Below are positions 1-42,600 of a stretch of DNA of 46,349 bases, one piece after another (position 1 is the stretch's first letter; the number at the start of each line of letters is the position of its first letter). This DNA is from a virus: the IMG/VR virus record IMGVR_UViG_3300025525_000001; one strand, 5' to 3'. The notes beneath the pieces were generated by a model. It saw nothing but the letters and a program-made list of their open reading frames with translations, was not told the origin of the DNA and made no database searches. A program made the position numbers and the translations under genes.

Positions 1-125
1 GCGAGAACATCGGACAGGTTGGGTGGGAGGCCACGCGCGGCGTTTACCTGACGATGGTCAACTGCCGAAACCGGAAGACGGCGGGAACGTCAGGCATTGC
101 CATTGGCTTGTCGCAGTCCGTTCAG
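1..125. repeat. Terminal direct repeat, left copy (identical to 46225..46349)
   Basis: Bases 1-125 (gcgagaacatcggacagg...tcgcagtccgttcag) recur base-for-base at 46225-46349. The unique length is therefore 46,224 bp. Confidence 0.95.
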
Positions 126-3279: not shown

Positions 3280-3528
3280 CTAGATCAAGTCCGCGCAGCC
3301 GCAGGCCTCGGCGTAGAGTTCGAGGATCGCCTTCTCCTCCTGCAGTTTGGCCTTGTCCTTCTCGCGAAGCATGACCAGCTTGTTGATGATCTTCGTGTCG
3401 AAGCCCTCGCCCTTGGCTTCGAGCCGGACTTCCTTCATGTCTTCGCGGACGGCCTTGGCGTCCTCGCGCAGGCGCTCAAGGCGCTCCACGAAACCGACGA
3501 CGCGGTTGTTGACCAGGTGCTCGGTCAT
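3280..3528 (-). CDS. gapR: GapR-like nucleoid-associated protein (DUF2312 family)
   Basis: VERLERLREDAKAVREDMKEVRLEAKGEGFDTKIINKLVMLREKDKAKLQEEKAILELY matches the DUF2312/GapR pattern (RiErLeeE..., EAK..GfD.k, Rk.d, E.ail.lY). It is 82 aa and has an ATGA overlap with the helicase gene. Confidence 0.8.
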   Translation of the reverse strand: MTEHLVNNRVVGFVERLERLREDAKAVREDMKEVRLEAKGEGFDTKIINKLVMLREKDKAKLQEEKAILELYAEACGCADLI

Positions 3529-4940
3529 GGTTGTCTCCTCATCGCGTCGAGCAGTACCTGCTGGACGCTTCGCTTGTTGGTGAGCCGGTCGAGTACGAGT
3601 TCATCCACGGTGCCGGCGGCCAGGATGTAGTGGACGTAGACGGGGCGATCCTTGCCCGCCTGCTGTTGGCGCATCGGCCCGATCCGTCCGATGATCTGGT
3701 CATGCTCTTCTAAGTTCCAGTTCAGTCCGAAGAAGGCGAGGATGTTGCAATGCTCCTGCAGTCCGTCGACCCCGTGTCCGAGGCTGGCGGGGTGGGCGAG
3801 CCAGACGCGGCCCTCGCCCGACTTCGCTCTTCGGAGGCCCGCAGCTGTGCTAAGGTCGATGGCGTTTGGAAAGGCGCGAAGTAGCCGAGCCAGGTCGTGT
3901 CGCCAGTGGTAGGCGACGAGGACAGGCGCGCCTGCGCTTTCCTCGACGACGCTCTCAAGGGCGTCGATTTTGACGGTATGTATTTCATGCCAGGCCTTCT
4001 CCTCTTCGTTGTCGTAGACCGCGCCGTTGGCGATCTGCAGGCACTTGCCCGAGCGCGCCGCGGCGTTGACCGCTTCGATGCCGACCGCCTTCAGCGCGGT
4101 CCACATCTTCTTCTCCATTTCCTGATAGTGCTGCCGCGCCTTGGGCGGCAGGTCGACATAGATGACGTTGAGCAGGGGCTCGGCCGTCGGCACGGTGGTG
4201 GTCAGACAGACGTCGGCCAGCGCCTTTTCGATCTGCTCCTGGGCGAAGGGCAGGGGCTCAAGGCTGAAGCCGTCGTAGCCCTTCTGGAACCACCGCTCCT
4301 TGAACGCCTCGAACGTGCGGCCCAGGCGCTGACCCGCGTCGATCATCCACTGTTGCCCCCACAAGTCGATCAGTCCGTTGGGTGAGGGGGTGCCGGTCAG
4401 GTTGACCCAGCGCGGCGTCTTGTGGGCGACGCGGCCTATGGCCTTGGCCCGGGCGCTGCCGCTGGACTGATAGTAGACCCGGCCGGTCTTCGGGTGCTTG
4501 CGGAACCCTCCCCGGAAGGACTTGAGGCGCGTGCTCTCGTCGGCGATCACCATCCCGAACGGCCAGTCGCCATCCAGCTTCTCGATCAGCCACGGCAGGT
4601 TGTCGTAGTTGATGGTGGCCAGGGGCGATCCTCCGCGTCGCACAGCGGCAAGAGCGGCCAGCCGGTCACTCGGCGTGCCGATGATGGTCTCGACGCTCCA
4701 CGGGCTGGAAAACGACCACTTCTGCGCTTCGTCCGACCAGGTGTCCCGGGCGACGCGCAGAGGGGCTATGACCAGGGCGGGCTTCGTCAGCTCGCCGGTC
4801 AGGTGCAGGATGTCCATGGCCGCAAGGATCGTGCCGGTCTTGCCGGTCCCCACACCCGCCCACTGGCCAGCCCGGGCCGTCTCGCAGACGTGCTCGATCA
4901 TGGCCGGTTGCCAGGGGCGGGGCAGGTAGGGGCGGCTCAA
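3525..4940 (-). CDS. SNF2/RAD54-family ATP-dependent helicase
   Basis: LPRPWQ, Walker A GVGTGKTG and a DExx box (VIADESTRLKS), with a C-terminal helicase domain. The start is TTG at 4940, overlapping the upstream stop (TTGA). Confidence 0.85.
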   Translation of the reverse strand: MSRPYLPRPWQPAMIEHVCETARAGQWAGVGTGKTGTILAAMDILHLTGELTKPALVIAPLRVARDTWSDEAQKWSFSSPWSVETIIGTPSDRLAALAAVRRGGSPLATINYDNLPWLIEKLDGDWPFGMVIADESTRLKSFRGGFRKHPKTGRVYYQSSGSARAKAIGRVAHKTPRWVNLTGTPSPNGLIDLWGQQWMIDAGQRLGRTFEAFKERWFQKGYDGFSLEPLPFAQEQIEKALADVCLTTTVPTAEPLLNVIYVDLPPKARQHYQEMEKKMWTALKAVGIEAVNAAARSGKCLQIANGAVYDNEEEKAWHEIHTVKIDALESVVEESAGAPVLVAYHWRHDLARLLRAFPNAIDLSTAAGLRRAKSGEGRVWLAHPASLGHGVDGLQEHCNILAFFGLNWNLEEHDQIIGRIGPMRQQQAGKDRPVYVHYILAAGTVDELVLDRLTNKRSVQQVLLDAMRRQP

Positions 4941-5215
4941 GTCAAATCCTCGAACCCGGCCAACGCCTCGTCGCGTAAACGCTTACGCGCACGCTGGGCG
5001 GCTCGGCCGGTCCCTTGGGCTTTAAGCGCGAGCAACCGTTCGTTCCGCGCTTTGCGGGCGGGGTCAGGCGTGCCCCGGTTTTCGATAGCGCAGATCGCGT
5101 GCTGCGTTCGCCAGCCGCCAGCGAACCGCTCGAAGTGGCCCTCGCCGGCTGCGACTGTTTTCTTGCACCTGTAGCAGGGGCCTGGGTAGCGGTTCCTCAT
5201 TTCTTGTTGCGCCAC
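4937..5215 (-). CDS. Hypothetical protein with CxxC Zn-finger-like N-terminus
   Basis: GPCYRCKKTV...HAIC. An alternative coupled start (ATGA) lies at 5200. Third-position GC looks coding-like. Confidence 0.6.
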   Translation of the reverse strand: MAQQEMRNRYPGPCYRCKKTVAAGEGHFERFAGGWRTQHAICAIENRGTPDPARKARNERLLALKAQGTGRAAQRARKRLRDEALAGFEDLT

Positions 5216-5400
5216 AGCGGGGTCTTCGGTTTCGGCCGGCGGCAGACGTGGAACCCGCCACAGGCCGGGCAGCGATAGGTGTCGACGCCCTTGCCGTGCC
5301 AGGCCATGTTGCGAGCGGCGCGGATCGCGGCGGCTCCGTTGGGGAACCGCTCCTTACCCAAGCAGCTGGCCCCCTCGGCGTTGGTCGCGGATCGGGTCAT
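5197..5400 (-). CDS. Hypothetical small Zn-ribbon-like protein
   Basis: The internal ATG at 5400 is coupled (ATGA) to the GcrA-like stop. It contains YRCPACGGFHVC and encodes 67 aa. Confidence 0.55.
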   Translation of the reverse strand: MTRSATNAEGASCLGKERFPNGAAAIRAARNMAWHGKGVDTYRCPACGGFHVCRRPKPKTPLWRNKK

Positions 5401-5690
5401 CGGCGTTGTTCCGTGAAGCGCATCGGCAAGGGCCGGGCGGGCATCTCCGAACGCGACCAGACGCCTTGGCCGTACTGGTTGGCCAGCGGGCCCGGTTCCT
5501 CGGCGCGGTACAGAGCGCCGATCACCGCATTGCGGGTCCGTCCCAGCTTGCGGCCGATGGCGGTCGAGCCCCACCCCTTGCGGCGCAACCGGATTGCCAA
5601 GGCCAGCTCGGCGGCGGCCCACGGTCGGGACCAGACGAGGTCGCCGCCGCGGACGCTGACCCGTTCTCGGATTTCGTGGTGGGGGTTCAT
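5397..5690 (-). CDS. gcrA: GcrA-like DNA-binding protein (N-terminal GcrA domain only)
   Basis: W..AAAELALAIRLRRKGWGSTAIGRKLGRTRNAVIGALYR matches the GcrA N-terminal signature (W.dE....L..LW..G.Sa.qIA..LG..TRNAVIGK.hR), including the exact TRNAVIG heptad. It is 97 aa, versus about 170 aa for cellular GcrA as I recall it. Confidence 0.7.
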   Translation of the reverse strand: MNPHHEIRERVSVRGGDLVWSRPWAAAELALAIRLRRKGWGSTAIGRKLGRTRNAVIGALYRAEEPGPLANQYGQGVWSRSEMPARPLPMRFTEQRR

Positions 5691-5935
5691 CAGCCGACAG
5701 CCTTCGGGATGTCGTTGCGGAACAGGACCGTGACCTGGGGATCGAACAGGCTGTCGGCCAGGTACTGGACCGCCGGCACGGTGGTGCCGCCGTGGCGCAG
5801 CAGACGGATGTAGCCGCTGCCCCAGGCCGCGAAGACGTCTTCGCCGCGGCGGAACAGGGCGGCCTGCTTGAACACCCCCTTCGAGCGGAGGATGATCTGC
5901 GCCTCGGGCAGGTCGTGGAACAGGTTGTCGGTCAT
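5690..5935 (-). CDS. Hypothetical protein
   Basis: 81-aa ORF whose stop overlaps the next start by 1 nt (TGATG). Codon usage looks coding-like. Confidence 0.6.
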   Translation of the reverse strand: MTDNLFHDLPEAQIILRSKGVFKQAALFRRGEDVFAAWGSGYIRLLRHGGTTVPAVQYLADSLFDPQVTVLFRNDIPKAVG

Positions 5936-6304
5936 TCAGCTTGTCCTTTCAGCGATATACTTGTCGACAGCGGCAATGCTGTCGAGGGTGAAGACCGAGC
6001 AGCCCATGCTGCGCAGCTTGTCGTGCTCGCGGACCTGATGGTCTTCGAGCTTTCCGCCGGGCGCTTTCAGCTCGACGAAGTGTATGACGGCGGTGCCGGG
6101 CATCTCGGCCGCGATCTTGCGGGTAACGGCGGCGGCATAGTCCCGGGCCGTCTGATCGGGGATGGCGGTCTCGAACCGGAACCCCGGCCAGATCACCAGC
6201 CGATCCGGTGCGCCGCGGTGGCCGGGCCAGGTCATCTTCCTGACCAGGCCGCCCTTGGCGATGACCTGTTTGCGGAGGTGGGCTTCGACTACGGTTTCAC
6301 GCAC
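5936..6304 (-). CDS. VRR-NUC domain nuclease (PD-(D/E)xK)
   Basis: EAHLRKQV..., GAPDRLVI and FVELKAPGGKL..HQ give the typical VRR-NUC E...PD...ExK arrangement. Confidence 0.75.
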   Translation of the reverse strand: MRETVVEAHLRKQVIAKGGLVRKMTWPGHRGAPDRLVIWPGFRFETAIPDQTARDYAAAVTRKIAAEMPGTAVIHFVELKAPGGKLEDHQVREHDKLRSMGCSVFTLDSIAAVDKYIAERTS

Positions 6305-7028: not shown

Positions 7029-7525
7029 TGAACAACATCCTTCGCGTCCCACGCCTTGGCCTCGCCGCAAGTGATGCAGGCGGCTTCCTCGACATGGGAG
7101 AGCGCGCCGCAGACGCACCGCTCGTAGTCGGTGGGCGCGAGCATCGCGCGGCCTTCGTCAGTGATGCGATAAACGTGCGGCTCATTCGCCTGAACGAGAA
7201 GCCCACGGCATTTCAGGAAGTATTGCGGGGTGCTGTAGGCGATGATCCACGGGCGGCCCATGTCATCGTATTTGGCGACGCGCGAGCCTCGCCGATCCCC
7301 GGCCCCGAAGCCGACAGCCCCACTGGACGAGCGGGCCGCAGCGGTGAGTATGAGAACCTGCGTAGGGGTCAGGCCCTTGATCCGGGGCATACGCGCGAGG
7401 CGCGGAGCCCGTTCGCGAGCGTGAATCTCCTGGAAGTTCGCCGAGTGACAAGCGGCGTGCCAGTTGTCGCCGCGCCTCAGTTGACCAGCAATGATGGGTT
7501 GGTCACACCCGCGACAGGCCGTCAT
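7025..7525 (-). CDS. Putative DNA-binding protein (winged-helix core flanked by Cys clusters)
   Basis: N-terminal CRGCDQ...WHAACH, a central MarR-like pattern (LTPTQVLILTAAA...YRITDEGRAML) and C-terminal CVCG...CITCG. An AAGGA RBS lies upstream. Confidence 0.5.
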   Translation of the reverse strand: MTACRGCDQPIIAGQLRRGDNWHAACHSANFQEIHARERAPRLARMPRIKGLTPTQVLILTAAARSSSGAVGFGAGDRRGSRVAKYDDMGRPWIIAYSTPQYFLKCRGLLVQANEPHVYRITDEGRAMLAPTDYERCVCGALSHVEEAACITCGEAKAWDAKDVVQ

Positions 7526-7528
7526 GGT

Positions 7529-7711
7529 TTAAATCCTTGTTTGACGGGGACAATCCCCGTGCACAAGTAGATATATACCCTCATTGTCCGAGGGAGTCAA
7601 ATATATAATTCCCGTTTTCAACAGCTCGATCAAGTCGGCCACCGTCATGTGGCCCTGCGCGTTAAACCGGGTTTCCAGCTCGGTGCGCTTTGCTTCTTGT
7701 CTCTTGGTCAT
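7529..7711 (-). CDS. Hypothetical 60-aa protein (contains the AT-rich island)
   Basis: The ATG at 7711 is coupled (ATGA) to the DNA polymerase stop. The longer 195-aa track ORF is an Arg-rich upstream extension that overlaps polA. Confidence 0.5.
   Translation of the reverse strand: MTKRQEAKRTELETRFNAQGHMTVADLIELLKTGIIYLTPSDNEGIYLLVHGDCPRQTRI
7572..7600 (-). promoter_or_regulatory. Consensus-like sigma70 promoter TTGACT-N17-TATATA with a palindromic spacer
   Basis: On the minus strand: TTGACT (7600-7595), a 17-nt spacer CCCTCGGACAATGAGGG (CCCTC/GAGGG arms) and TATATA (7577-7572). The GGGGACAATCCCC hairpin (7546-7558) and an AAGGA RBS lie downstream, before the ATG at 7525. Confidence 0.45.
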
Positions 7712-16344: not shown

Positions 16345-16502
16345 CGGTCTTGTCCTTTTCGCTCGGCCGCTTGTCCGGCCTGGCCCCCTCTCTGAACCAG
16401 TCCACAGCGCCTGTCAAGCGTTTGGTTGTGAAAAAGATGGCCTTGCATCTCTCAAGCGTTTGGTTGTAAGGAGGGAGCCCAACAGCGAAAAGGACAAAGC
16501 TG
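16345..16502. promoter_or_regulatory. Divergent control region with a 16-bp direct repeat and mirrored translation-initiation regions
   Basis: TCAAGCGTTTGGTTGT occurs at 16414-16429 and 16452-16467. The inverted copies GCGAAAAGGACAA (16349-16362 on the minus strand, 16485-16499 on the plus strand) sit just before the two divergent ATGs. Confidence 0.7.
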
Positions 16503-16994
16503 ATGAGCGACCAATCCCAACCCGCAGACACGGCCGGAGAGGCGGTGGCTTGGGTCTCGAGAACCGTTCTGGCTCGACTGGCTGAAAGCGACAAGGGGTG
16601 CGAGACCGCCAATCTTTGGAAAAGCCAACCGACCAAGGAGAGCGTCGCCCTCTACGCCCATCCAAGGGCAGAGGCTCCTTCCGTAGTAGGGGCGCTGGAA
16701 ATGGCGCGGGCTTTCATCATCGACCAATATTCGTGCGCGGAGTCGTCTGCTTTGGCGGGCGACCCTATCAGTGAGGAAGCCCGACCTGTCCGCGACGCGC
16801 TGTGCGCAGCGCTAGCCGCCCTTTCATCAGCAGAAGGTCAGGGTTCATCCTCGGCTCTGGACCATCTGATAGACGAGGCATTCGACGCCGGGCCGCAACA
16901 ACCCGCATATGGGCCGTTGACCCCCGAACCAGGAGCTAACAGCCCAGATAATGGTGGTTCCGCTGCGCCGTTCAAGAATGGGGCGGGGGAATGA
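16503..16994 (+). CDS. Hypothetical protein, first gene of the rightward block
   Basis: 163-aa ORF preceded by GCGAAAAGGACAAAGCTG-ATG. It has an ATGA overlap with the methyltransferase gene. Confidence 0.65.
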   Translation: MSDQSQPADTAGEAVAWVSRTVLARLAESDKGCETANLWKSQPTKESVALYAHPRAEAPSVVGALEMARAFIIDQYSCAESSALAGDPISEEARPVRDALCAALAALSSAEGQGSSSALDHLIDEAFDAGPQQPAYGPLTPEPGANSPDNGGSAAPFKNGAGE

Positions 16995-17719
16995 TCTGCG
17001 ACCTGCGGTTCGGAGACTGCCTCGACCTGCTGCCGGCACTGGCGGACAAGTCTGTCGACCTCGTGCTGGCCGATATGCCTTACGGAACAACCCGGTGCGC
17101 GTGGGATGTCCAGATAGACCTGCAGCGTCTCTGGCCTGAACTCCGGCGGGTGTGTCGCGGGGCTATCGTCCTGTTCGCGCAGTCACCCTTCGACAAGGTG
17201 TTGGGTGCGTCCAACCTGCCGATGCTCCGCTACGAGTGGATATGGGAGAAGACCAACGCCACCGGACATCTGAACGCAAAGCGGGCTCCGATGAAGGCGC
17301 ACGAGAACGTGCTTGTCTTCTATGATGGCCGCCCGACCTACAACCCGCAGATGACGACCGGCCATGCGCGCAAGGTGGCCAAAAGCAAGTCCCGAGAGGC
17401 CTCGGTCGTATACGGCGAGCAAAGCCGTCTAGGTAGCTACGACAGCACCGAGAGATACCCGAGATCGGTGCTTACCTTCGCCAGCGACAAGCAGCGGTCG
17501 AAACTGCACCCGACGCAAAAGCCCCTTGGGCTGTGCGAATATCTTGTGCGGACGCACAGCAATCCCGGCGACACAGTTCTCGACTTCTGCATGGGGTCGG
17601 GAACAACCGGCGCTGCCTGCCAGAACCTCGGCCGTCGCTTCATCGGCATTGAATCCGATGCCTCCCACTTCGCCACTGCAGCCACGCGCCTTGGCGTCCA
17701 AACGGAGATCGCAGCATGA
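16991..17719 (+). CDS. DNA methyltransferase, beta-class N6-adenine/N4-cytosine (N6_N4_Mtase family)
   Basis: Motif IV DMPY (LADMPYG) lies N-terminal to HPTQKP and motif I FCMGSGTTG, which is the beta-class order also seen in CcrM. The protein is 242 aa. Confidence 0.85.
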   Translation: MICDLRFGDCLDLLPALADKSVDLVLADMPYGTTRCAWDVQIDLQRLWPELRRVCRGAIVLFAQSPFDKVLGASNLPMLRYEWIWEKTNATGHLNAKRAPMKAHENVLVFYDGRPTYNPQMTTGHARKVAKSKSREASVVYGEQSRLGSYDSTERYPRSVLTFASDKQRSKLHPTQKPLGLCEYLVRTHSNPGDTVLDFCMGSGTTGAACQNLGRRFIGIESDASHFATAATRLGVQTEIAA

Positions 17720-18938: not shown

Positions 18939-19213
18939 CCGACCAGTACAAGGAACCGCTGCGCGCCCGGCCTGACCCTCGCGACGAGGAGGTCCGGCTC
19001 GCTGGTCTTGTAACGGGCGGCGAGAGCCCCCGGCCGCCGCGCTACAGGCCTTACGAGGCGGTCAAGGAGAAAGACCTGACCGGCCGTATTGCGGCCCCGG
19101 GTCTGATGTTCAAACCTGACGCTCCGCGGGGCCGCAAGGTGCCGATGCCCAACGAAGGCCCTGCCCAGGCGTGGCCGGGCAAGTATCCCTCCGAACCCCG
19201 CCGCAAGGACTGA
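18935..19213 (+). CDS. Hypothetical basic/Pro-rich protein
   Basis: 92-aa ORF with a GTG start coupled (GTGA) to the upstream stop. Confidence 0.5.
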   Translation: MTDQYKEPLRARPDPRDEEVRLAGLVTGGESPRPPRYRPYEAVKEKDLTGRIAAPGLMFKPDAPRGRKVPMPNEGPAQAWPGKYPSEPRRKD

Positions 19214-19215
19214 CG

Positions 19216-20004
19216 GTGCAAAAGGACAATCTCATCGCGGCGCTCCAGCCGCTGGTTAGCCGTGCCCAGCCGAAGATACTGGACCTGTTCTGCGGCGCGG
19301 GCGGCGCGGGCATGGGCTACTCACTGGCCGGCTTCGACGTGTACGGCGTCGATCTGCTGCCTCAGAAGCGATACCCCTTCGCCTTCCACCAAGGCGACGT
19401 GATCGCGGTCGTGGAGGGGCTTCTCCGGGGCGAGCGCGTCGCCTTCACCCACCCGGGCGGGACAGTCGAGCACCTCTCGCTCACGGACTTCGACGCGATC
19501 CACGCCTCGCCGCCCTGTCAGGCGCACACGTCGCTGAAGTCGATGCATAACGCCAAGCAGCACCTCGATCTGGTCCCCGCGACTCGGCGTTTCCTTGATG
19601 ACGCGGGGGTGCCATGGATCATCGAGAACGTCGTTGGTGCTCCCCTGATTGACCCGGTAGTGCTTTGCGGCACGATGTTCGGCCTTGGTGTCTCCGACGC
19701 GGAGCTTCGCCGGCACCGCTTGTTCGAGGGGAGCTTCCCGCTCTTCGCGCCCCGCTGCCAGCATGGGAAACGGCCCCGAACAACTACCCGGCCGCGGACC
19801 ATCGGCATCTACGGGGAGGGGTGCCGCGACAGCCGGCGCAAGTTCGACAAGACGATCCCGGAGTTCACGGTCGTGGACGCGCGTGTCGCCATGGGCATCG
19901 ACTGGATGACCCTGGCCGAACTCTGCCAAGCCATCCCACCCTCGTATACCGCTTGGCTTGGCCGCCAAGTGCTCGACCAAATCCGGTTCGGAGACCTCGC
20001 ATGA
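19216..20004 (+). CDS. DNA (cytosine-5)-methyltransferase
   Basis: Motif I LDLFCGAGG, motif IV HASPPCQ (catalytic Cys), motif VI IIENV and RRHRLF. The GTG at 19216 has AAGGA 6 nt upstream. The protein is 262 aa. Confidence 0.85.
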   Translation: MQKDNLIAALQPLVSRAQPKILDLFCGAGGAGMGYSLAGFDVYGVDLLPQKRYPFAFHQGDVIAVVEGLLRGERVAFTHPGGTVEHLSLTDFDAIHASPPCQAHTSLKSMHNAKQHLDLVPATRRFLDDAGVPWIIENVVGAPLIDPVVLCGTMFGLGVSDAELRRHRLFEGSFPLFAPRCQHGKRPRTTTRPRTIGIYGEGCRDSRRKFDKTIPEFTVVDARVAMGIDWMTLAELCQAIPPSYTAWLGRQVLDQIRFGDLA

Positions 20005-22232
20005 GCGGCCTTGTAGAAGCTCTGCAGCCGCTGGTCAGCCGTGCTCGGACGGACGTGACCGCCATCAAGGCCTCGACCGGCATGGCGTGGACCCGGGAGG
20101 CGCTGACCGAAGTCCGGTTGAAGCGCCACCTGGACGGCACGATGCCCCGCGGCGTCTGCCCCATCAAGGCCGGGGAGAGCACCACCCGCATTGCCCTGTT
20201 CGACCTGGACAGCCACAAGGGGGCGACCAGCTGGGAGGAGATGTCAGGCGTGGCCTCGCGGCTTGCGGGGTCGCTTGAAGCCGAAGGCTTCCATCCGGTG
20301 CTGTTCCGCTCGACTGGCGGCAGGGGCATCCACATCTTCTTGGTGTGGAACGAGCCCCAGGACGCTTACTCTGTGCGCCGCTGCATGGACCACTTCCTCG
20401 CCTCCTTGGGTTTCGGGAACGGCGCGAAAGGGGTGGCCAACGGGGAGATCGAGGTCTTCCCCAAACAGGACAGCGTGCCCGAGCACGGCTTCGGCAACCA
20501 GTTCATCCTGCCCTTGGCCGGCAAGTCCGCGCCGCTGGAGCCGATGCTCAACTACGAGGTGATGCCCCGCGAGTATGCGCTGAAGCTGGAGTGGAAGCCC
20601 TCGGCCCCGGTGCCAGTGGTCGAGAAGCCCGAAAGGCAGCTGCGGGCTATGGACGATCAGCTTGCCGAGGCTTTCTGGTTCGGCGCGGAAGGGCCGGTGC
20701 CTAAGCTCCGCGAGGCCCTGGCCGCCATCCCCAACGACACCGATCCGCTGGGCTATGACGAGTGGCGCGACATCGTCTCGGGCATCCACCACGCCACCAG
20801 CGGCTCGGACGAGGGCTATCAGCTGGCCTATGAGTTCTCGTCCCGGGCCCCGCACTTCGATGAGGACGAGCTGGCCATCAAGGTCTGGGCCTGGCTCGAC
20901 CAGAAGGGCGAGACCGCCAACCCGATCACCGAACGCACCGTCTTCGCCAAGGCCCGCGAGCACGGGTGGGCCGACCAGGCATCGCCTGACGACTTCGAGG
21001 ATTTGACACCGGCGCTGCGCGAAGAGCAGGTCGATCTCCCCCTCCCCGGCTTCCAGCGTGATGGCAACGGCCGGATCGAGGCTGTCCTCGGCAACGTCCG
21101 ATCCGCTTTGTTGAGGCCAGACGTCTGCGGCATGGACCTTCGCTTCGACGAGTTCCGCTTCGAGATCGTCTTCGCCGACGTCGAGCACCCGGGCAAGTGG
21201 CTGGCCTTCAAGGACCACCACGCGGTCGAGCTGCGCCTGACCCTGGAGCGGATGGGCTTCAAGCCGGTCGGCCGCGAGCTGATGAGGGACGTGGTCAACT
21301 ACGTCGCCCAGCACAACGTCGTCGACACGGCCCAGGTCTGGCTGGACAGCCTGAAATGGGACGGCGTGTCGCGGGTCGGCCGCTTCTACGAGACCTACTT
21401 CGGCGTCGCCCCCTCGCCCTATAGCAGGGCGGTGTCGCGCTACACCTGGACGGCGATGGCTGGCCGCGTGCGCGTGCCCGGGGTCCAGGCCGACATGGTG
21501 CCCATCGTCACCGGGAGCCAGGGCCAGCGCAAGACAAGCGGCATCGTGGCCATGGTCCCCAACGACACCTTCCGCGAGCTGTCGTTCCACCAGTCCGAAG
21601 AGGACCGGGCCCGGCTCATGCGCGGGTGCCTGATGGTTGAACTCGCCGAGCTGTCGGGCCTCAAGACCCGGGAGAACGAACAGATTAAGGCCTGGATCAC
21701 GCGGCGCAAGGAGGACTGGACACCGAAGTACCAGGAGTTCGCCGTCTCCATGTGGCGGCGGTGCGTCATGCTGGCGACGTCCAACCCGACCGACCTGCTC
21801 GACGACCCTACAGGCGCTCGGCGGTGGTTGCCGATGGCGTCGGGGAACGTGGGTGTCGAGGGCATCGCCCGGGACCGCGACCAGCTGTGGGCCGAGGCCG
21901 ATGTCCTGTTCGCCGCCGGCGGCGTGGACTGGCGCGAAGCCCAGGCCCTGGCAGAGGACGAGCACGAGGCTTACCGCGTTGTCGATGGGTGGGAAGAGGC
22001 CATCGAACGGTGGCTTGAGACCCCCGAGCTGGACGGGTTGCTGCCCTACCCGTACGGCTTCACCACGCACCAGGCCCTGGTCGAGGGGCTCAGTTTCCGC
22101 GAAAACGCAATAAAACGCATGGACGAGACCCGTATGGCGAAGGCGCTGAAGGCCTTGGGCTACACGCAAAAAGTTACAAGAAGGAACGGGAAAGGGTTGA
22201 GACTGTGGGTCGGCAACGGACGGCAATGGTAG
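20001..22232 (+). CDS. Bifunctional primase-polymerase / VirE(D5)-type helicase
   Basis: ATG at 20001 (ATGA junction). Prim-pol motifs ALFDLDSHKG and GGRGIHIFLVW; a PriCT-like segment (WRDIVSGIHHATSGSDEGYQLAYEFS); a P-loop VTGSQGQRKTSG in a VirE-like C-terminal half. Confidence 0.85.
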   Translation: MSGLVEALQPLVSRARTDVTAIKASTGMAWTREALTEVRLKRHLDGTMPRGVCPIKAGESTTRIALFDLDSHKGATSWEEMSGVASRLAGSLEAEGFHPVLFRSTGGRGIHIFLVWNEPQDAYSVRRCMDHFLASLGFGNGAKGVANGEIEVFPKQDSVPEHGFGNQFILPLAGKSAPLEPMLNYEVMPREYALKLEWKPSAPVPVVEKPERQLRAMDDQLAEAFWFGAEGPVPKLREALAAIPNDTDPLGYDEWRDIVSGIHHATSGSDEGYQLAYEFSSRAPHFDEDELAIKVWAWLDQKGETANPITERTVFAKAREHGWADQASPDDFEDLTPALREEQVDLPLPGFQRDGNGRIEAVLGNVRSALLRPDVCGMDLRFDEFRFEIVFADVEHPGKWLAFKDHHAVELRLTLERMGFKPVGRELMRDVVNYVAQHNVVDTAQVWLDSLKWDGVSRVGRFYETYFGVAPSPYSRAVSRYTWTAMAGRVRVPGVQADMVPIVTGSQGQRKTSGIVAMVPNDTFRELSFHQSEEDRARLMRGCLMVELAELSGLKTRENEQIKAWITRRKEDWTPKYQEFAVSMWRRCVMLATSNPTDLLDDPTGARRWLPMASGNVGVEGIARDRDQLWAEADVLFAAGGVDWREAQALAEDEHEAYRVVDGWEEAIERWLETPELDGLLPYPYGFTTHQALVEGLSFRENAIKRMDETRMAKALKALGYTQKVTRRNGKGLRLWVGNGRQW

Positions 22233-36688: not shown

Positions 36689-39600
36689 ATGGCTGTTGAG
36701 CTGCAGGACGACCCCGCTTCCCAGATCGAAGAGCAACGCCGCAGGCTGTCGAACGCGCTGCGCACCGGGGCTGTGGAGAACCCCGACGCCCTGGCCGCTG
36801 ACCGCGCCGAGGCGGCCCGCAGGGGTATGCCGGTCACCGCGCTGCGCGCCGTTCGCCAGCAGAATGTGGTCTTGCCCCCGGTCGCGTTGACGCCGGACCT
36901 GCCGGAAACCTCGCCGCGCACCTCGAACTTCCTGTCCAACCCGGCCAACGCCGCGGTCGCCCACGACGACATCGAGAATATGTCGGCGGTCGAGCGCATC
37001 GTCGCCCGCATCGGAGAGCGCACCGTCCGTTTGGCCCAGGGCGCGGGCCGTGCTTCGTACACGGCCTTGGCTGGGCCAGCCACGTGGCTGGAAGAGAACC
37101 TGCCTCGACAGGTTCTATCCTTCGAGAATGGGCGCATCGTGCGCCGTGCTATCTCGGCCGAGGAGCGCAGGGCCACCGGTTTCAACGCGCAGGCGCAGCG
37201 CCTGCTCGACCCGAACAGACTGCACACCATCGAGCAGGGCGTCACCTGGGAAGAGTTCAAGGAGCGCCCCCTCGAACGCCTGATCCCGTTCGCGCTCGAA
37301 GAAGGCGTCGTGTCGGTGCCGGACATGGCCGCGGTCATGTTGAACCTGCCCGCCTACGTGACGGCGCGTACGGGCGAGATAGGCCAGGAGCGGTCGGAGA
37401 ACGACGGGCGCGAAAACGCCACGGTAATGGACCTTGTCGCCGCCCTTCCCGCGGCGGCAGCTTCGGCGCTTCTGGACCGGCTCGGTGCGCGGGGTATCCT
37501 CGGCATCGACGACGCGGTGCGCGGCGGTTTGCGTGGCGTGCCCGGGGCTGTCGGCCGAGCCGCTGGCAAGGAGGCCGTCACCGAGGGCCTGCAGGAGGGG
37601 ATCGAATATCTGGGCTCGAACCTCGGCACCGAGGCGGGCTTTAACCCTGCCGACGCGCTGGAGCGTATGGCCCAGGGGGTGATCATCGGCGGCCCGTTCG
37701 GCGGCACCGTCCGCACTGTGACGGCCACGGCCGAAGTTGCGGCCCAGCGGTTCGGCGCGCAGGAGACCCAGGCCCAGGCGGGCGAACAGGCGGCCGAAAC
37801 GCTGCAGGAACTGGCGGCCCTGGCCGAGGCCTCGAAGCTGCGCGAGCGCGACCCGCAGACCTTCCAGCAGTTCATCGAAGAGGCGTCGGAGGGGACGCCG
37901 GCCGAGAACATCTACGTTGACGCCGAGACCTTCGCCCAGAGCCTGAACGAGGCGGGCGTGCCGCTCGATGCCGTGCTCGAAGCGATCCCCGGATTGTCGG
38001 ACCAGCTCGCCACGGCGGCCGAGACCGGCGGCGACCTGCGCATCAGCGCGGGTGAGTTCGCCACCCACATTGCGGGCACCGACGCCGTCGGCCCGCTGCT
38101 CCCGCACCTGCGCACCGACCCGTTCGCGATGAGCCAGGCGCAGGCCAAGGAGTTCATGGCCAACCGCGGCGACGCGCTGCAGGCCGAGGTCGAGGCGGCG
38201 GTCACCGCGGCTACGGCCACCGAGGACGCGCGGGCGGGCCGGGAGCGGGTGCAGGCCAAGATCGCCGCCGAGCTGGACACCACCGGCCGCTTCACCTCGG
38301 ACGTCAACCGCGCCTACGCTTCGTTGCCGTCGGCCTTCTACGACGTCATGGGCGCGCGGCTGGGCATCACCGCCGAGCAGGCGGCCGAACGTTACCCGCT
38401 GAAGTTCGCCGCCGAACTGCCGTCGAGCGCCCGCGCGAACACGCTGGAGCAGATCGAAACTGTCGAACAGATCGCAAGGGACGCGGAGAGCCAAGGCGTT
38501 CGGATCGACACCACCGAAGGCGACAACGAGATCGCGCTCAACCTGATCGACACCACCGCAGCAGGCCGGAAGCAGGGGCTGGGCACGGCTTTCATGGAAC
38601 GGCTGGTCGCCAACGCTGACGCCACCGGGCGACGTGTCGTGCTGACGCCCGACGCTTCGATGGGCGCGACGTCGGCGGGCCGACTGGTCAAGTTCTACAA
38701 GCGGTTCGGCTTCAAGGAGAGCAAAGGCCGCGGGCGCGACTTCAGCACGCAAGCGGGGATGATCCGCGAGCCCGTGGCCGGGGCTGAAGCCACTTTCAAC
38801 CAAGCCGAAGACGTAGCCCCACACTTCTACTCGGCCCTCGAACGCGCCGTGGCGAACAGCCCGACCACCAAGGCCCCGGCCGCACAGTGGAAGGCGACGC
38901 TTGCCAAGACGCCGGGCGTGAAGAAGGAAGAGCTGGAGTGGTCGGGCCTGAACGAGTGGCTGGACGCCGCTGGCGGTGAGGGCGCGCTGGCAGGGTACAC
39001 CCGTTCGTCGCTGTTGGATCGGGATGAGATCGACGCCAAGGGCAACATAGCGAAGTCGGCGGTTCTGCGTTTCGTTAAGCAGGGCGGTGTCCAGGTCGAG
39101 GAAACGGTGCTGGGCGAAAACGCTGGCACACCCGAACCCTTCGCGGAGCCTGACGACGACTGGTTAGAGACTACCGCCGCGCGTCTTCGGGTAGAAGACC
39201 CCGAGTTGACCGAACAGGAGGCTCTGAGCGCCGCTAAAGACGAGTGGTATGAAGACGCCACTTACGAGGATTTGAACCCACAGTTCGAGACGGACGCGCA
39301 GTTCTCCAGCTACAAGCTCCCCGGCGCGGACGATACCTACCGCGAAATCCTGCTGACCCTGCCCCAGATCGAGGGCCCGTCGACCCATTGGGACACCGAG
39401 AACGTCGTCGCCCACGCGCGGGTCACGATGCGCGAGGACGCCTCGGGCGCTCGCGTGCTGTTCCTCGAAGAGCTGCAGAGCGACTGGCATCAGCAGGGAC
39501 GGGATGAGGGGTACAAGACCGACGCCTCTCCCGAGAAGATCGAAGAGGCCAAGTTCAACGCCCTTGAGGCGCGTCGGAAGCTGGACAGCATCGCGTACGA

Positions 39601-42600
39601 CATGGCCCGCATCGCCGAGCGCACGGGCGAGGCCAAGCGCGAGTGGTTCGGTCGGCCGATCAATGACCTCGGCCCCTATGACAAGCGCCGCGCTTACGAG
39701 GGCATGGTCGAAGAAGGCACTGCGACCCCGGAGCTGACCGAGATCGTCATGGCACGGGCGCAGGCCGCACTTGTGGCCCGCGAGACCTCCATCGCCTACG
39801 AGGCGCTGGAGCGTGGCATCCCCGACGCCCCCTTCCGCAATAGCTGGTCCGCTCTCATCATGAAGCGGATGATCCGCTACGCCGTCGACAACGGCGCGGA
39901 GAAAATCGCGTGGATCAACGGCAACCAGCAGAACGGCGGCCAGACCGGCGGCGACGGCTCCTTCTTCTACGAGCGCAACCTGGTCAACGTCGCCAACGAC
40001 CTGGTGAAAAAATACGGGACGCGGGTCGGGCCGGTGGATATGCTGGAAACCACCTTCGGCCGCCAGCAATACGCCCTCAAACAAGAGCTGGGCGAGGACA
40101 CCCCCGAGCGCCAAGCAGAAGACCAACAGGTAATCGTCGCCTCGCAAGAGGAGGTTCAAGACCTCTATCGGGAAGCGATCAACCTACCGATGGCAACCCC
40201 CGAAAGGGTCGCCGCCGAGAACGCGCTGATGCGTGCCCGCATGGCGCAGCGTGAGAATAACCCGGAGCTGGTCGCGGCCGAGCGCCGCAGCGAAATCCGC
40301 AGGCATCTTTACGGCAGAGCGGACCCTACCCGACCCGCTACCTCTCTCGGCATCCAAAACGGCTTCGAGATCACGCCCGCCCTGCGCGAGGCGGCCCAGC
40401 AGGGCTTCGCCCTGTTCCAGAAGAACCGAGGCCAGATCGCTTTCGGCGCTGACGTCAGCCAGACCCCGTCGGTCATCAGCGTCCTGCGCGCCGCCGATCT
40501 CTCGACCTTCGTCCACGAGACCGGCCACTTCTTCCTCGAAGCGACGGCGCACATGGCCAACCAGGTTGACGCGCCGGCCGACATCGTCGCCGACATGGCG
40601 ACCACCCTCAACTGGTTCCAAGAGGGTATGACGCTCGCCGACTGGAACGGCATGAGCCTCGAAGAGCGCCGCCCCTTCCACGAGAAGTGGGCCCGCGGGT
40701 TCGAGGCCTACCACTTCGAGGGCAAGTCCCCCAGCCTCGCCCTGCGCGACGTGTTCCGCCGCTTCTCGGCGTGGCTGAAGAACGTCTACAAGTCCCTGAC
40801 CGCTCTCGACGTCGAGCTGACCGAAGACGTGCGCGCGGTCATGGACCGGATGTTGGCCTCGGAAGCCGAGATCGCCGAGATGGAACAGGTCCGCGGCTTC
40901 GCCCCGGCCTTCGCCAGCAAGCCCGAATACGCCACCGAGGACCAGTGGTCCGAGTATCAGCGACTGGCTGGCGACGCCACGGCCGAAGCCATCGAGCAGC
41001 TGGAACAGCGCAGCGCGCGGGATATGCGCTGGGCGTCCGGTGCCAAGGATCGCTACGTCAAGGCGATGCAGCGCGAGGCCGACGAACAGCGCAAGGCGAT
41101 CCGCGCCGAGGTGACCGCCGAAGTGATGGCCGAGCCGGTCAACCGGGCCCGCAACTTCCTGCGCCGCGGCCTGGGCGAGAACGGCGAACCCGTCGAGGGT
41201 GCCGTCAAACTGGACCTGGCCACGCTCAAGGAGCTGTACGGGGACGAGGGCGCGTGGACCGCTCTTCGCCGCGGAGGCAAATACGGCGAGGTCTCCACCG
41301 ACGGCGCGCACCCCGACATCGTCGCCGGTATGTTCGGCTATTCGTCCGGCGAGGCGATGATCGCCGACCTGGTCAACGGCGAGAACGCAGCCGACAAGAT
41401 CAAGGGCCTGACCGACCAGCGGATGCTGGAGCGGTACGGCGACCTGACCGATCCGCAGGCCATCGAGCGCGCCGCCAACGAAGCGGTCGCCAACGACGCC
41501 CGGGCCAAGTTCGTGGCCGCCGAGATGGCGATGGCCGACAAGGCTGTCGGCAAGAAGTCGATCCTGAACGAGGCCGCCCGCGACTTCGCCGCCGGTGTCG
41601 TCAACCGCCTGGAGCTGAAGCGCTTGCGCCCCGCGCAGTACCTGGCCGCTCAAGGCCGTGCGGCCAAGGCCGCCGAGAAGGCGCTGAAGAAGGACGATCT
41701 GCCTGCCTTCGCCGCGGCCAAGCGCAACCAGCTCATCAACCTGCACACCGGCCGCGCCGTGATGAAGGCCCAGGCCGACGTCGAGAAGAACACTCGCCTG
41801 TTCACGCGCATCGTCAGCGCCAAGGACGACGCGATATCTCGCACCCGCAACATGGACCTGGTCAACGGGGCCCGGGCCATCCTGTCGCTCTACGGTTTCG
41901 GCCGGGTCAAGAACGACCCCATCGGCTACATGGACGCGCTGAAGCGGTACGACCCGGTCCTCTACACGGACCTGGAGCCGTTCATCACGGCGGCCCGAGC
42001 CTCGGCCAAGCCGATCCCCGACCTGACCTACGAGGAGTTCCAGGGACTGCGCGACGTCGTCGGGCAGCTCTGGGCGCTGTCGCGCCGCGTGAACCAGGTC
42101 GAGCGAGACGGCAAGCTGGTCGACCTGAAGACCGTCACCGCCGCCATGGAAACGCGGCTGGAAGAGATCGGCATCCCCGAGAATCGCCCCGGCACGCGCC
42201 GCGCCATCACCGACAGCGAGAAGCGCGACTTCGATCTATTGAGCGTCCGCGCCGCCCTGCGTCGCGTGGAGAGCTGGGCGCGTGGGATCGACGGAGCGAA
42301 CAGCGGCCCGTTCCGCGCCAACATCTGGAACCCAGTGTCGGAAGGCGCGGACAACTACCGCGCCGAGAGCGGCGTCTACATCAAGCGTTTCCGCGCTCTG
42401 CTCGACACCGTCCGCGACGAGTTGAAGCCGCGCGACATCGCCGCGCCCGAACTGGGCTACACCTTCGGCGGCAAGTCGGAGCTGTACCACGCGCTGCTCC
42501 ACACCGGCAACGGCTCGAACAAGTCCAAGCTGCTGCTGGGCCGCAACTGGGGCAAGCGCGATCCTGACGGGATGCTCGACGACAGCCGCTGGCAGACCTT

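What the first reader, a model, noticed from the sequence alone, without database searches (positions are those of the whole stretch)
5397..5690. Truncated GcrA-like regulator, suggesting hijack of the methylation-dependent host cell-cycle circuit
Seen: residues ~20-62 match the GcrA N-terminal DNA-binding signature, including the exact TRNAVIG. The protein is only 97 aa, and I cannot recognise the C-terminal sigma-factor-interaction region of cellular GcrA. The genome also encodes a beta-class (CcrM-order) methyltransferase at 16991..17719. Established knowledge: GcrA binds RNAP-sigma70 and activates promoters carrying CcrM-methylated GANTC sites. Inference: the phage protein could redirect or block host GcrA-dependent transcription, perhaps acting together with the phage methyltransferase.
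Basis: partly seen in the sequence, partly recalled or inferred. Interest (0 to 1): 0.65.

Follow-up and report, generated by a model that had tools for sequence, protein, structure and literature searches.

The report
Phage stand-alone GcrA-type DNA-binding protein
A 46-kb phage of an alphaproteobacterium encodes a 97-residue protein that keeps the methyl-DNA-reading domain of the host cell-cycle regulator GcrA but lacks its RNA-polymerase-binding half; phage GcrA-like genes are already known from annotation, so this is a plausible but untested host-takeover factor.

Summary
Window 5397..5690 (minus strand) is a real 97-aa gene. Residues 20-67 are homologous to the GcrA DNA-binding domain (DBD). 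The Pfam GcrA model alone is sub-threshold (E 0.12), but three other tests agree:
- A profile of close homologues hits only GcrA in the PDB (E 1.3e-4).
- 26 of 40 family members hit PF07750.
- Family versus bona fide GcrA by hhalign gives 99.6% probability, E 1e-23.

All five GcrA residues that read the bases and the two N6-methyl groups of GANTC are kept. The sigma70-interacting domain is absent.

"Truncated" is misleading. The short form is conserved in the same slot in at least 12 related uncultivated BPP-1/Rauchvirus-like phage contigs.

The proposed partnership with the phage methyltransferase is not supported. That enzyme is beta-class but not a CcrM equivalog (77 vs 830 bits). The genome is also almost free of GANTC: 9 sites, with 6 in coding sequence against 64±7 expected.

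Most likely mechanism (inferred): a methyl-GANTC reader uncoupled from RNA polymerase that acts mainly on host DNA.

Novelty is modest. Phage GcrA homologues, including short ones, are already annotated and this role has already been speculated. None of the papers found reports a functional test.

The parts
5397..5690 (-). Gene for the 97-aa stand-alone GcrA-type DNA-binding protein (stop codon 5397-5399).
   Evidence: ORF list; GC3 0.86; same gene call in a public assembly; homologues.
5628..5663 (-). Residues 10-21: predicted N-terminal beta-hairpin, absent from cellular GcrA and conserved in the close clade.
   Evidence: AlphaFold2 model, strands 10-14 and 17-21, block pLDDT 88-89; alignments.
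5490..5633 (-). Residues 20-67: three-helix GcrA-type DNA-binding domain.
   Evidence: hhalign against bona fide GcrA, probability 99.6%, E 9.9e-24; PDB profile hit 5yiu E 1.3e-4; helices 26-37, 42-49, 53-62, pLDDT about 90-95.
5505..5537 (-). Residues 52-62 (TRNAVIGALYR): recognition helix carrying the equivalents of GcrA R33, N34, I37, G38, R42.
   Evidence: Alignments to Caulobacter GcrA; residue roles from PMC5887438; family conservation R 37/40, N 34/40, I 33/40, G 32/40, R 36/40.
5400..5432 (-). Residues 87-97 (PLPMRFTEQRR): conserved C-terminal tail, predicted disordered; candidate partner-binding motif. The wider family has R-x-F-S-W-E here.
   Evidence: Alignments; low pLDDT; does not align to the GcrA sigma-interacting domain.
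5690..5935 (-). Upstream 81-aa gene of unknown function. Its stop overlaps the GcrA-like start by 1 nt (TGATG). Co-conserved in part of the clade.
   Evidence: no Pfam, PHROG or NCBIfam hit.
5197..5400 (-). Downstream 67-aa Cys-rich gene. Its ATG overlaps the GcrA-like stop (ATGA). Co-conserved in part of the clade. Not a GcrA sigma-interacting domain.
   Evidence: phrog_15216, unknown function; hhalign against GcrA probability 0.6%.
5936..6304 (-). VRR-NUC-type nuclease gene; conserved upstream anchor of the slot.
   Evidence: phrog_93 endonuclease E 9.5e-22; synteny.
3525..4940 (-). SNF2-family DNA helicase gene; conserved downstream anchor of the slot.
   Evidence: phrog_62 E 6e-128; synteny, 73-78% identity in relatives.
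3280..3528 (-). GapR-like nucleoid-protein gene at the end of the same gene string; a second homologue of an alphaproteobacterial chromosome protein.
   Evidence: PF10073 E 3.7e-22; NF052541 GapR 79 bits, below its 140 cut-off; conserved in relatives and in SR18.
7572..7600 (-). Promoter-like element TTGACT(7600-7595)-N17-TATATA(7577-7572) upstream of the gene string that contains the GcrA-like gene. The GANTC site GACTC (7598-7594) overlaps the -35 hexamer and is centred near -31 of the inferred start site.
   Evidence: Read from the sequence; site list. The automatic promoter scan did not call it. Function is inferred.
16991..17719 (+). Beta-class N6/N4 DNA methyltransferase. Not a CcrM equivalog; specificity unknown. 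No evidence that it belongs functionally with the GcrA-like gene.

Best explanation
[quoted passage not shown] The protein has an N-terminal beta-hairpin, a three-helix HTH, and a short conserved C-terminal tail. The gene is a conserved part of the replication and recombination gene string (DNA polymerase A, VRR-NUC nuclease, this gene, SNF2 helicase, GapR) of a BPP-1/Rauchvirus-like podophage. The host is most likely a CcrM/GcrA-bearing alphaproteobacterium.

How it most likely works (inferred): it keeps every residue that GcrA uses to contact the GANTC bases and both N6-methyl groups, but it has no sigma70-binding domain. It therefore most likely binds CcrM-methylated GANTC sites ('GcrA boxes') without bringing RNA polymerase. 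That makes it a methyl-DNA reader uncoupled from transcription activation. On host DNA this would compete with the DBD of RNAP-bound GcrA, or simply occupy those sites, and so damp GcrA-dependent cell-cycle and division genes during infection. The phage's own DNA carries almost no GANTC and would be largely exempt. One retained GANTC, in the promoter-like element upstream of the protein's own gene string, could give feedback or coupling to host GcrA.
For: - Domain identity. Foldseek against viral models puts proteins annotated 'GcrA cell cycle regulator' and Brucella phage EF4 'GcrA-like' on top.
- Contact residues kept: R53, N54, I57, G58, R62 correspond to GcrA R33, N34, I37, G38, R42. H41 becomes Y, and is H or W across the family.
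- No sigma-interacting domain.
- The DBD carries net charge +8 against +4 for GcrA residues 1-45, which may raise the DNA affinity of a bare domain.
- Conserved short form and fixed gene position in at least 12 viral contigs, with overlapping start and stop codons with its neighbours.
- Alphaproteobacterial host context: GapR homologue; Caulobacter Rauchvirus phages are among the DNA-polymerase relatives (48% identity, just below Bordetella BPP-1 at 52%); GANTC purge shared with Caulobacter phages SR18 and BL94 (0 sites) but not with Bordetella phage BPP-1 (81 sites).
- The phage genome is nearly GANTC-free: 9 sites; 6 in CDS against 64.3 ± 6.9 in synonymous-codon shuffles.
- The GACTC centred near -31 of a promoter-like element fits the -30 ± 2 class of GcrA boxes (PMC9976885).
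Against: - No binding or phenotype data exist.
- Caulobacter GcrA without its C-terminal domain did not localise to promoters in vivo, so a bare DBD may bind too weakly to compete.
- K39, whose K39A change impairs GcrA, is Ala here, and W15 is Arg.
- Foldseek against the PDB gave only generic HTH matches, and 5yiu was not in the top 50.
- The GANTC purge also occurs in SR18 and BL94, which lack the gene, so the purge is not caused by this gene.
- The promoter is read by eye, was not called by the scan, and is not conserved in relatives.
- The host is unknown.
Confidence: 0.4

Rival explanations
1. It is a phage-directed regulator. The protein acts on the phage's own DNA, either at the few retained GANTC sites (for example the promoter-like element at 7572-7600) or at another operator, to time or autoregulate the replication-module operon.
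For: Small HTH proteins in phage early and middle operons are usually phage regulators. One of only 9 GANTC sites overlaps the -35 of the promoter-like element upstream of its own gene string, and a second lies 171 bp downstream. PHROG and Pfam side hits are to transcription regulators and HTH families.
Against: Relatives L005-L007 and L009-L013 have no GANTC at all in the 7-12 kb around the gene, and the sites that do occur in relatives are not at a conserved promoter. The promoter is unverified. GcrA-type DBDs bind as monomers with modest affinity, unlike typical dimeric phage repressors.
Confidence: 0.22
2. It is an adaptor. The DBD marks methylated GANTC (host) DNA and the conserved C-terminal tail recruits a partner there, such as RNA polymerase, the neighbouring nuclease or helicase, or the products of orf81 or orf67. 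This would be a way to tell host DNA from GANTC-free phage DNA.
For: The tail is conserved (PLPMRFxEQRR in the clade, R-x-F-S-W-E in the wider family) but predicted disordered. The gene lies between a nuclease and a helicase, and orf81 and orf67 are co-conserved with it in part of the clade. The phage genome is nearly GANTC-free. GcrA-DBD-like domains are fused to DNA-metabolism modules in other phages: the T5 A1 N-terminus, and dCMP-deaminase and D5-like families.
Against: No partner is identified. Some clade members (L007-L009) replace the tail with a different ending. This remains speculation.
Confidence: 0.13
3. It is a generic HTH DNA-binding protein of GcrA ancestry whose specificity and role have diverged, for example binding another motif or non-specific DNA in replication or recombination. 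In that case the GANTC/CcrM circuit is irrelevant.
For: The single sequence is below the Pfam and NCBIfam GcrA thresholds. HTH_23 is its best Pfam hit. The domain occurs in many architectures, including proteins with 2-11 tandem copies. Structural matches to the PDB are generic. K39 and W15 are not conserved.
Against: The recognition helix is nearly identical to GcrA's and is strongly conserved across the short family, whereas in the one tandem-repeat protein read (P0020) the repeats lack TRNAVIG. All five base and methyl contacts are retained.
Confidence: 0.2
4. It is a pseudogene or assembly artefact: a full-length phage gcrA broken by a frameshift.
For: It is shorter than cellular GcrA (about 170 aa), and a small ORF follows directly.
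Against: The length and both ends are conserved in relatives. The same gene call appears in an independent assembly. GC3 is 0.86. The downstream ORF is unrelated to the GcrA sigma-interacting domain and has its own PHROG family.
Confidence: 0.02

Closest known systems
Caulobacter crescentus GcrA (PF07750; NCBIfam NF050816; PDB 5yiu/5yiv/5z7i, 7ye1)
   Same: The N-terminal three-helix DBD is homologous. The TRNAVIG recognition helix is identical, and all base- and m6A-contacting residues are kept: R33, N34, I37, G38, R42.
   Different: There is no ~60-residue linker and no C-terminal sigma70-interacting domain. It has an extra N-terminal hairpin and its own C-terminal tail. W15 is Arg, K39 is Ala and H41 is Tyr. 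It scores below both family thresholds.
GcrA homologues of phiCbK-like Caulobacter phages (phiCbK gp222) and Agrobacterium phage Atu_ph08 gp5
   Same: These are phage-encoded GcrA relatives in alphaproteobacterial phages, proposed to alter the host cell cycle or replication state (PMC3556154; PMC6630229; PMC7987155).
   Different: The phiCbK proteins are reported as recognisable PF07750 members sharing 41 conserved residues with CB15 GcrA. The window protein has the DBD only and is below threshold. The phage type also differs: a 46-kb podophage against jumbo sipho- and T4-like phages.
Short 'GcrA-like' proteins of brucellaphages (EF4, 111 aa; Y17 ORF4/ORF5) and of uncultured phages (51-74 aa entries annotated 'GcrA cell cycle regulator')
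   Same: They are short phage proteins built around the GcrA-type HTH, and are the top structural neighbours (EF4: rmsd 1.8 Å over 45 columns, 31% identity). No function is known for the phage Y17 proteins, and no paper found here reports a functional test of any phage GcrA-like protein.
   Different: No detectable sequence hit in the cultured-phage collection. The clade-specific N-terminal NPYHQIRER/hairpin and the PLPMRFSEQRR tail were not compared with those proteins.
Phage T5 A1 N-terminal domain; sigma70 region 4
   Same: They share the small three-helix DNA-binding fold (T5 A1 residues 1-60 against 5yiv; sigma region 4 Z 5.4 against the GcrA DBD). Five of 40 family members also touch Sigma70_r4_2.
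   Different: This is fold-level resemblance only, with no shared recognition helix. A1 carries a nuclease domain.

Membership tests
GcrA family (PF07750 / NF050816 'cell cycle sigma70 cofactor GcrA') | N-terminal GcrA-type DNA-binding domain | tested here: met
   Profile against PDB hits GcrA only, E 1.3e-4. hhalign against 8 verified GcrAs: 99.6%, E 9.9e-24. 26 of 40 relatives hit PF07750.
GcrA family (PF07750 / NF050816 'cell cycle sigma70 cofactor GcrA') | Scores above the curated family thresholds | tested here: not met
   PF07750: 13.2 bits against 26.9. No NCBIfam hit. The 66%-identical homologue P0002 scores 20.4 bits against 280.
GcrA family (PF07750 / NF050816 'cell cycle sigma70 cofactor GcrA') | C-terminal sigma70-interacting domain (C-x-W-P...FCG...YC..H) | tested here: not met
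   No Cys in the protein. Nothing aligns after residue 67. The neighbouring ORF is not a sigma-interacting domain.
GcrA family (PF07750 / NF050816 'cell cycle sigma70 cofactor GcrA') | Residues that read the GANTC bases and the N6-methyl groups (R33, N34, I37, G38, R42) | tested here: met
   R53, N54, I57, G58, R62. Backbone contacts K39 and W15 are not kept.
GcrA family (PF07750 / NF050816 'cell cycle sigma70 cofactor GcrA') | Preferential binding to methylated GANTC; binding to sigma70 region 2 | not testable with these tools
   Needs EMSA or ChIP and two-hybrid or pull-down experiments.
Phage short GcrA-DBD proteins (this clade) | 60-105 aa; DBD followed by R-A-G-E-P-G...N-Q and a conserved C-terminal tail; in the Rauchvirus-like clade, placed between VRR-NUC and the SNF2 helicase (position checked only for window, L002-L014) | tested here: met
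   Alignments; synteny in L002-L014.
CcrM (NF050803) - for the methyltransferase at 16991..17719 | Beta-class motif order (IV before I), PF01555 | tested here: met
   PF01555 E 2.2e-27. DMPY at residues 28-31, FCMGSGTTG near residue 200.
CcrM (NF050803) - for the methyltransferase at 16991..17719 | Equivalog-level similarity, including CcrM's C-terminal domain | tested here: not met
   77.5 bits against a cut-off of 830. It aligns to CcrM only at residues 7-32 and 170-236, which map to CcrM residues 18-43 and 194-260 of 366. The protein is 242 aa.
CcrM (NF050803) - for the methyltransferase at 16991..17719 | GANTC specificity | not testable with these tools
   Needs a methylome or a HinfI-protection assay. 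Indirect argument against a self-protective GANTC enzyme: GANTC is purged from the genome.

The most novel reading that the evidence does not exclude
The protein is one half of a 'reverse self/non-self' device. The phage has purged GANTC from its own DNA, so CcrM-methylated GANTC marks only host DNA. The stand-alone reader binds those marks and, through its conserved C-terminal tail, recruits or blocks machinery there (RNA polymerase, a nuclease or helicase, or replication proteins). This would give host-specific shut-off without touching phage DNA.
Probability: 0.1. Interest if true: 0.8.

Novelty: new member of a known kind. Interest (0 to 1): 0.42.

Why it matters
GcrA and CcrM form the epigenetic arm of the alphaproteobacterial cell-cycle circuit. 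Phage copies of GcrA have been noted since 2012, but none of the papers found here reports a functional test.

A natural DBD-only version separates "reading methylated GANTC" from "activating RNA polymerase". It is therefore a clean reagent for two questions: whether phages interfere with the circuit, and whether a bare GcrA DBD can compete in vivo.

Phages of this group have almost eliminated GANTC (0-9 sites per 45 kb). Together with the reader protein, this points to strong but unexplained selection on this motif in phages of CcrM-bearing hosts. If the protein turns out to be an ordinary phage regulator, the finding is routine.

Tried and rejected
- Single-sequence searches. Pfam, NCBIfam and phmmer against the PDB were at or below noise. 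Only profiles resolved the homology.
- Foldseek against the PDB. It gave generic HTH hits with E > 0.1 and no GcrA in the top 50. This is uninformative for a 40-residue helical domain. The viral library was more useful.
- Cultured phages. tblastn of this protein and of two relatives against 50,697 phage records found nothing relevant. Megablast of the region found nothing.
- Cellular genomes. The scan of 185,579 species genomes with the close-clade patterns found no relative. No host or prophage copy was therefore identified.
- Split-gene idea. The downstream 67-aa ORF is not the missing sigma-interacting domain.
- C-terminal tail as the start of the sigma-interacting domain. It does not align.
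- Conserved GANTC-bearing promoter in relatives. Not found.
- Methyltransferase as a CcrM orthologue or as an orthologue of BPP-1 Bpm. Rejected: 77 against 830 bits, and 47% identity over only 68 aa.
- SR18 and BL94 (Caulobacter Rauchvirus phages). They lack the gene between VRR-NUC and the helicase.
Full report
**1. The object**

Window 5397..5690 on the minus strand is a 97-aa ORF with an ATG start. Its third-position GC is 0.86, typical of real genes in this 66% GC sequence. Gene calls on an independent public assembly of the same genome give the same 97-aa product, flanked by 81-aa and 67-aa genes. The start codon overlaps the stop of the upstream 81-aa gene by one base (TGATG). The stop overlaps the ATG of the downstream 67-aa gene (ATGA). 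The three genes are therefore tightly packed in one transcription unit.

The window has a 125-bp terminal direct repeat, and a 46,221-bp contig carries the same gene. It is thus a complete, circularly assembled genome of about 46.2 kb.

**2. Is it GcrA-like?**

Taken alone, the sequence is inconclusive:
- Pfam GcrA (PF07750): E 0.12, 13.2 bits against a cut-off of 26.9. HTH_23 scores slightly better.
- NCBIfam: no hit.
- phmmer against the PDB: GcrA is first, but at E 1.

With relatives the case becomes strong:
- A profile of the five closest homologues matches only GcrA chains in the PDB (5yiu E 1.3e-4; 7ye1 E 1e-3).
- The same profile run against 1.84 billion representative proteins gives 576 hits at E ≤ 1e-3.
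  - Some are a family of 60-105-aa proteins of the same build.
  - Others are full-length GcrA proteins carrying the C-x-W-P...FCG...YC..H C-terminal domain.
- 26 of 40 short-family members match PF07750, best E 1.5e-12.
- All eight full-length hits that I aligned are bona fide PF07750 members, best E 2.6e-32 across the whole model.
- Profile-profile comparison of the short family against these GcrAs gives probability 99.6%, E 9.9e-24. It covers residues 20-67 of the window protein and residues 2-47 of the first GcrA in the alignment, and nothing else.

The AlphaFold2 model (mean pLDDT 79; about 90-95 over the domain) shows a beta-hairpin at residues 10-21, three helices at 26-62, and a disordered C-terminus. 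Foldseek against the PDB returns only generic HTH domains. Foldseek against viral models puts proteins annotated "GcrA cell cycle regulator" and Brucella phage EF4 "GcrA-like" (111 aa) on top.

**3. What is kept and what is missing**

Wu et al. 2018 (PMC5887438) list the GcrA residues that matter:
- R33, N34, I37, H41 and R42 contact the bases of TGATTCG.
- R33, N34 and I37 form one pocket for an N6-methyl group, and N34 and G38 form the other.

In the alignments these positions are R53, N54, I57, Y61, R62 and G58. All five base and methyl determinants are therefore identical, and H41 becomes Tyr. Across the 40-member family they are conserved at R 37/40, N 34/40, I 33/40, G 32/40 and R 36/40. 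Position 61 is H, W or Y.

Two backbone contacts are not conserved. K39 is Ala here, and the K39A change impairs GcrA. W15 is Arg. The domain is more basic than GcrA's, with net charge +8 against +4 over 45 residues.

The sigma70-interacting domain is absent. The protein has no Cys and no matching motifs, and nothing aligns after residue 67. The next ORF is not a detached copy of that domain (hhalign probability 0.6%). In its place the family has its own conserved features: a R-A-G-E-P-G...N-Q segment and a short C-terminal tail. The tail reads PLPMRFxEQRR in this clade and R-x-F-S-W-E in the wider family.

**4. Genomic and evolutionary context**

The phage is a BPP-1/Rauchvirus-like podovirus. 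Its DNA polymerase A is 52% identical to that of Bordetella phage BPP-1 and 48% to those of Caulobacter phages SR18, BL94, Jess A and RapA.

The gene lies in the minus-strand replication and recombination string, in this order:
- DUF2800/PD-(D/E)XK nuclease
- Enc34-type SSB
- DNA polymerase A
- a zinc-ribbon protein
- VRR-NUC nuclease
- orf81
- the GcrA-like gene
- orf67
- orf92
- SNF2 helicase
- GapR homologue

IMG/VR holds 26 viral contigs encoding relatives. In twelve loci (L003-L014), all 64-67% GC, the gene sits in the same slot between VRR-NUC and the SNF2 helicase; L015 is cut off upstream but has the gene directly before the helicase, and L002 is the same contig as L003. Identity is 50-66% for this gene and 73-78% for the helicase. 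orf81 and orf67 accompany it in some contigs. The GapR gene follows the helicase in all but one of them (L008). SR18 and BL94 have the same backbone but lack the gene.

More distant viral contigs carry three kinds of relative:
- full-length GcrA with the sigma-interacting domain (L016, L019-L021, L023);
- other short DBD-only forms (L022, L024-L027);
- a form with a C-terminal DBD (L017, L018).

No relative was found in cultured-phage records by tblastn, nor in 185,579 species genomes with the close-clade patterns.

**5. GANTC in the phage**

There are only 9 in 46 kb.
- Expectation is 145 from base composition and 57 from a third-order Markov model. GANTC is the most depleted of all 16 XYNY'X' palindromes.
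- Shuffling synonymous codons within 48 predicted genes gives 64.3 ± 6.9 sites in coding sequence, against 6 observed.
- Relatives have 0-2 sites per 12 kb.
- Caulobacter phages SR18 and BL94 have none in 45-46 kb.
- Bordetella phage BPP-1, of the same genus and with 65% GC, has 81 sites.

The purge therefore follows CcrM-bearing hosts, not the GcrA-like gene. It is far stronger than the roughly two-fold depletion reported for alphaproteobacterial chromosomes (PMC3973325).

One of the nine sites (GACTC, 7598-7594, minus strand) overlaps the -35-like hexamer of an AT-rich promoter-like element. The element reads TTGACT-N17-TATATA and lies about 45 bp upstream of the ATG at 7525, which opens the gene string leading to the GcrA-like gene. 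The site would be centred near -31. GcrA boxes in host promoters cluster at -20 ± 1 and -30 ± 2 (PMC9976885).

This is only a lead. The automatic scan did not call the promoter, and no equivalent is conserved in relatives. Only one site in the genome, at 19580-19586, matches the extended YGAKTCG consensus.

**6. The methyltransferase**

The ORF at 16991..17719 is a PF01555 enzyme with beta-class motif order: DMPY first, then FxGxG. It is not a CcrM equivalog:
- It scores 77.5 bits against the cut-off of 830.
- It aligns to CcrM only over the catalytic and AdoMet-binding motifs, and it lacks CcrM's C-terminal domain.
- It occupies the slot upstream of the primase, where BPP-1 has Bpm and BL94 a cytosine methylase. 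It is not orthologous to Bpm (47% identity over 68 aa).
- The experimentally shown GANTC-specific phage methylases of alphaproteobacterial phages are reported to share no sequence similarity with CcrM, and the small ones carry NPPY/F/W motifs rather than DMPY (PMC5537653).

Its specificity remains unknown. A genome purged of GANTC argues against a self-protective GANTC methylase.

**7. Mechanism**

Shown here:
- A conserved, expressed-looking stand-alone GcrA-type DBD.
- GcrA's full set of base and methyl contacts, and no sigma70-binding domain.
- A phage of a probable alphaproteobacterium whose own DNA almost lacks the motif.

Inferred: the protein binds methylated GANTC without recruiting RNA polymerase, mainly on host DNA. 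It would compete with RNAP-tethered GcrA or occupy its boxes.

The main caveat is that GcrA lacking its C-terminal domain did not localise to promoters in Caulobacter (PMC4647560). The bare domain may therefore need its extra charge, its hairpin, its tail or high expression to work.

The rivals are a phage-directed regulator, a tail-mediated adaptor, and a diverged generic HTH. None is excluded.

**8. Comparison and novelty**

Phage GcrA homologues are known from annotation:
- phiCbK-like phages
- Atu_ph08
- brucellaphages
- Senya and Shash

Cell-cycle manipulation has already been proposed for them. Short GcrA-annotated phage proteins exist in the databases.

This is therefore a new member of a known kind. 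It belongs to a distinct DBD-only clade with its own hairpin and tail. What adds interest is that it separates methyl-reading from activation, and that it sits in a genome almost free of the motif.

Noticed in passing
whole window; L001 (SR18), L030 (BL94), L029 (BPP-1), L003-L015: There is an extreme, host-linked purge of GANTC. The window has 9 sites, with 6 in CDS against 64 ± 7 expected from synonymous-codon shuffles. Caulobacter Rauchvirus phages SR18 and BL94 have 0 sites in 45-46 kb, while Bordetella phage BPP-1 (same genus, same GC) has 81. The purge is independent of the GcrA-like gene. The cause is unknown; it could be HinfI-type restriction or avoidance of CcrM/GcrA interference. 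I found no paper describing it.
   Followed up: partly
whole window (CDS): Other palindromes are absent or strongly avoided relative to synonymous-codon shuffles: CGATCG 0 against 20.8, GAGCTC 0 against 16.3, AGATCT 0 against 8.2, GGATCC 0 against 6.6, CTNAG 10 against 57. This suggests pressure from several restriction systems.
   Followed up: no
window 3280-3528 (-): This is a homologue of the alphaproteobacterial nucleoid protein GapR (PF10073 E 3.7e-22; below the NCBIfam equivalog cut-off). It lies directly after the SNF2 helicase and is conserved in all but one relative (L008) and in SR18. It is a second host-chromosome-protein homologue in the same gene string.
   Followed up: partly
window 7572-7600 (-): This is an AT-rich promoter-like element, TTGACT-N17-TATATA. 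Its spacer holds a 5-bp inverted repeat (ccctc/gaggg), and its -35 overlaps a GANTC site. A further GANTC lies at 7423-7427, inside the first gene downstream.
   Followed up: partly
window 16414-16429 and 16452-16467: An exact 16-bp direct repeat, TCAAGCGTTTGGTTGT, occurs twice 38 bp apart. It lies in the divergent intergenic region between the minus-strand early genes and the plus-strand orf163, methyltransferase and primase string. It is a candidate operator or promoter element.
   Followed up: no
window 1-125 and 46225-46349; ORF 44295-end continuing into 54-767: A 125-bp terminal direct repeat shows a circularly assembled complete genome. A long plus-strand ORF (probably tail fibre) runs across the junction. 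No integrase or repressor turned up among the roughly 35 ORFs scanned; most of the plus-strand structural ORFs were not scanned.
   Followed up: partly
window 19171-20004 and 19665-22232 (+): Two long ORFs with high GC3 overlap by 340 nt in different frames, upstream of and within the primase-like gene. This may be a wrong start, a frameshift, or two genes. The only full YGAKTCG GcrA-box match in the genome (19580-19586) lies here.
   Followed up: no
proteins P0015, P0045, P0050 and others: Many database proteins carry 2-11 tandem copies of the GcrA-type HTH (for example 715 aa with 7 copies, 2331 aa with 11, 914 aa with 10). Some also have a C-terminal sigma-interacting domain (P0071, P0076, P0103). 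Their architecture and origin were not explored.
   Followed up: no
window 36689-44284 (+): This is a single 2531-aa ORF in the structural module. It corresponds in position to the giant virion proteins of BPP-1 (bbp10) and SR18 (gp040).
   Followed up: no
L002 5902-6507: The closest relative contig carries a Mom-family (PF25680) DNA-modification gene just upstream of its DNA polymerase. The window has no equivalent there. DNA-modification genes therefore appear to be variable cassettes in this phage group.
   Followed up: no
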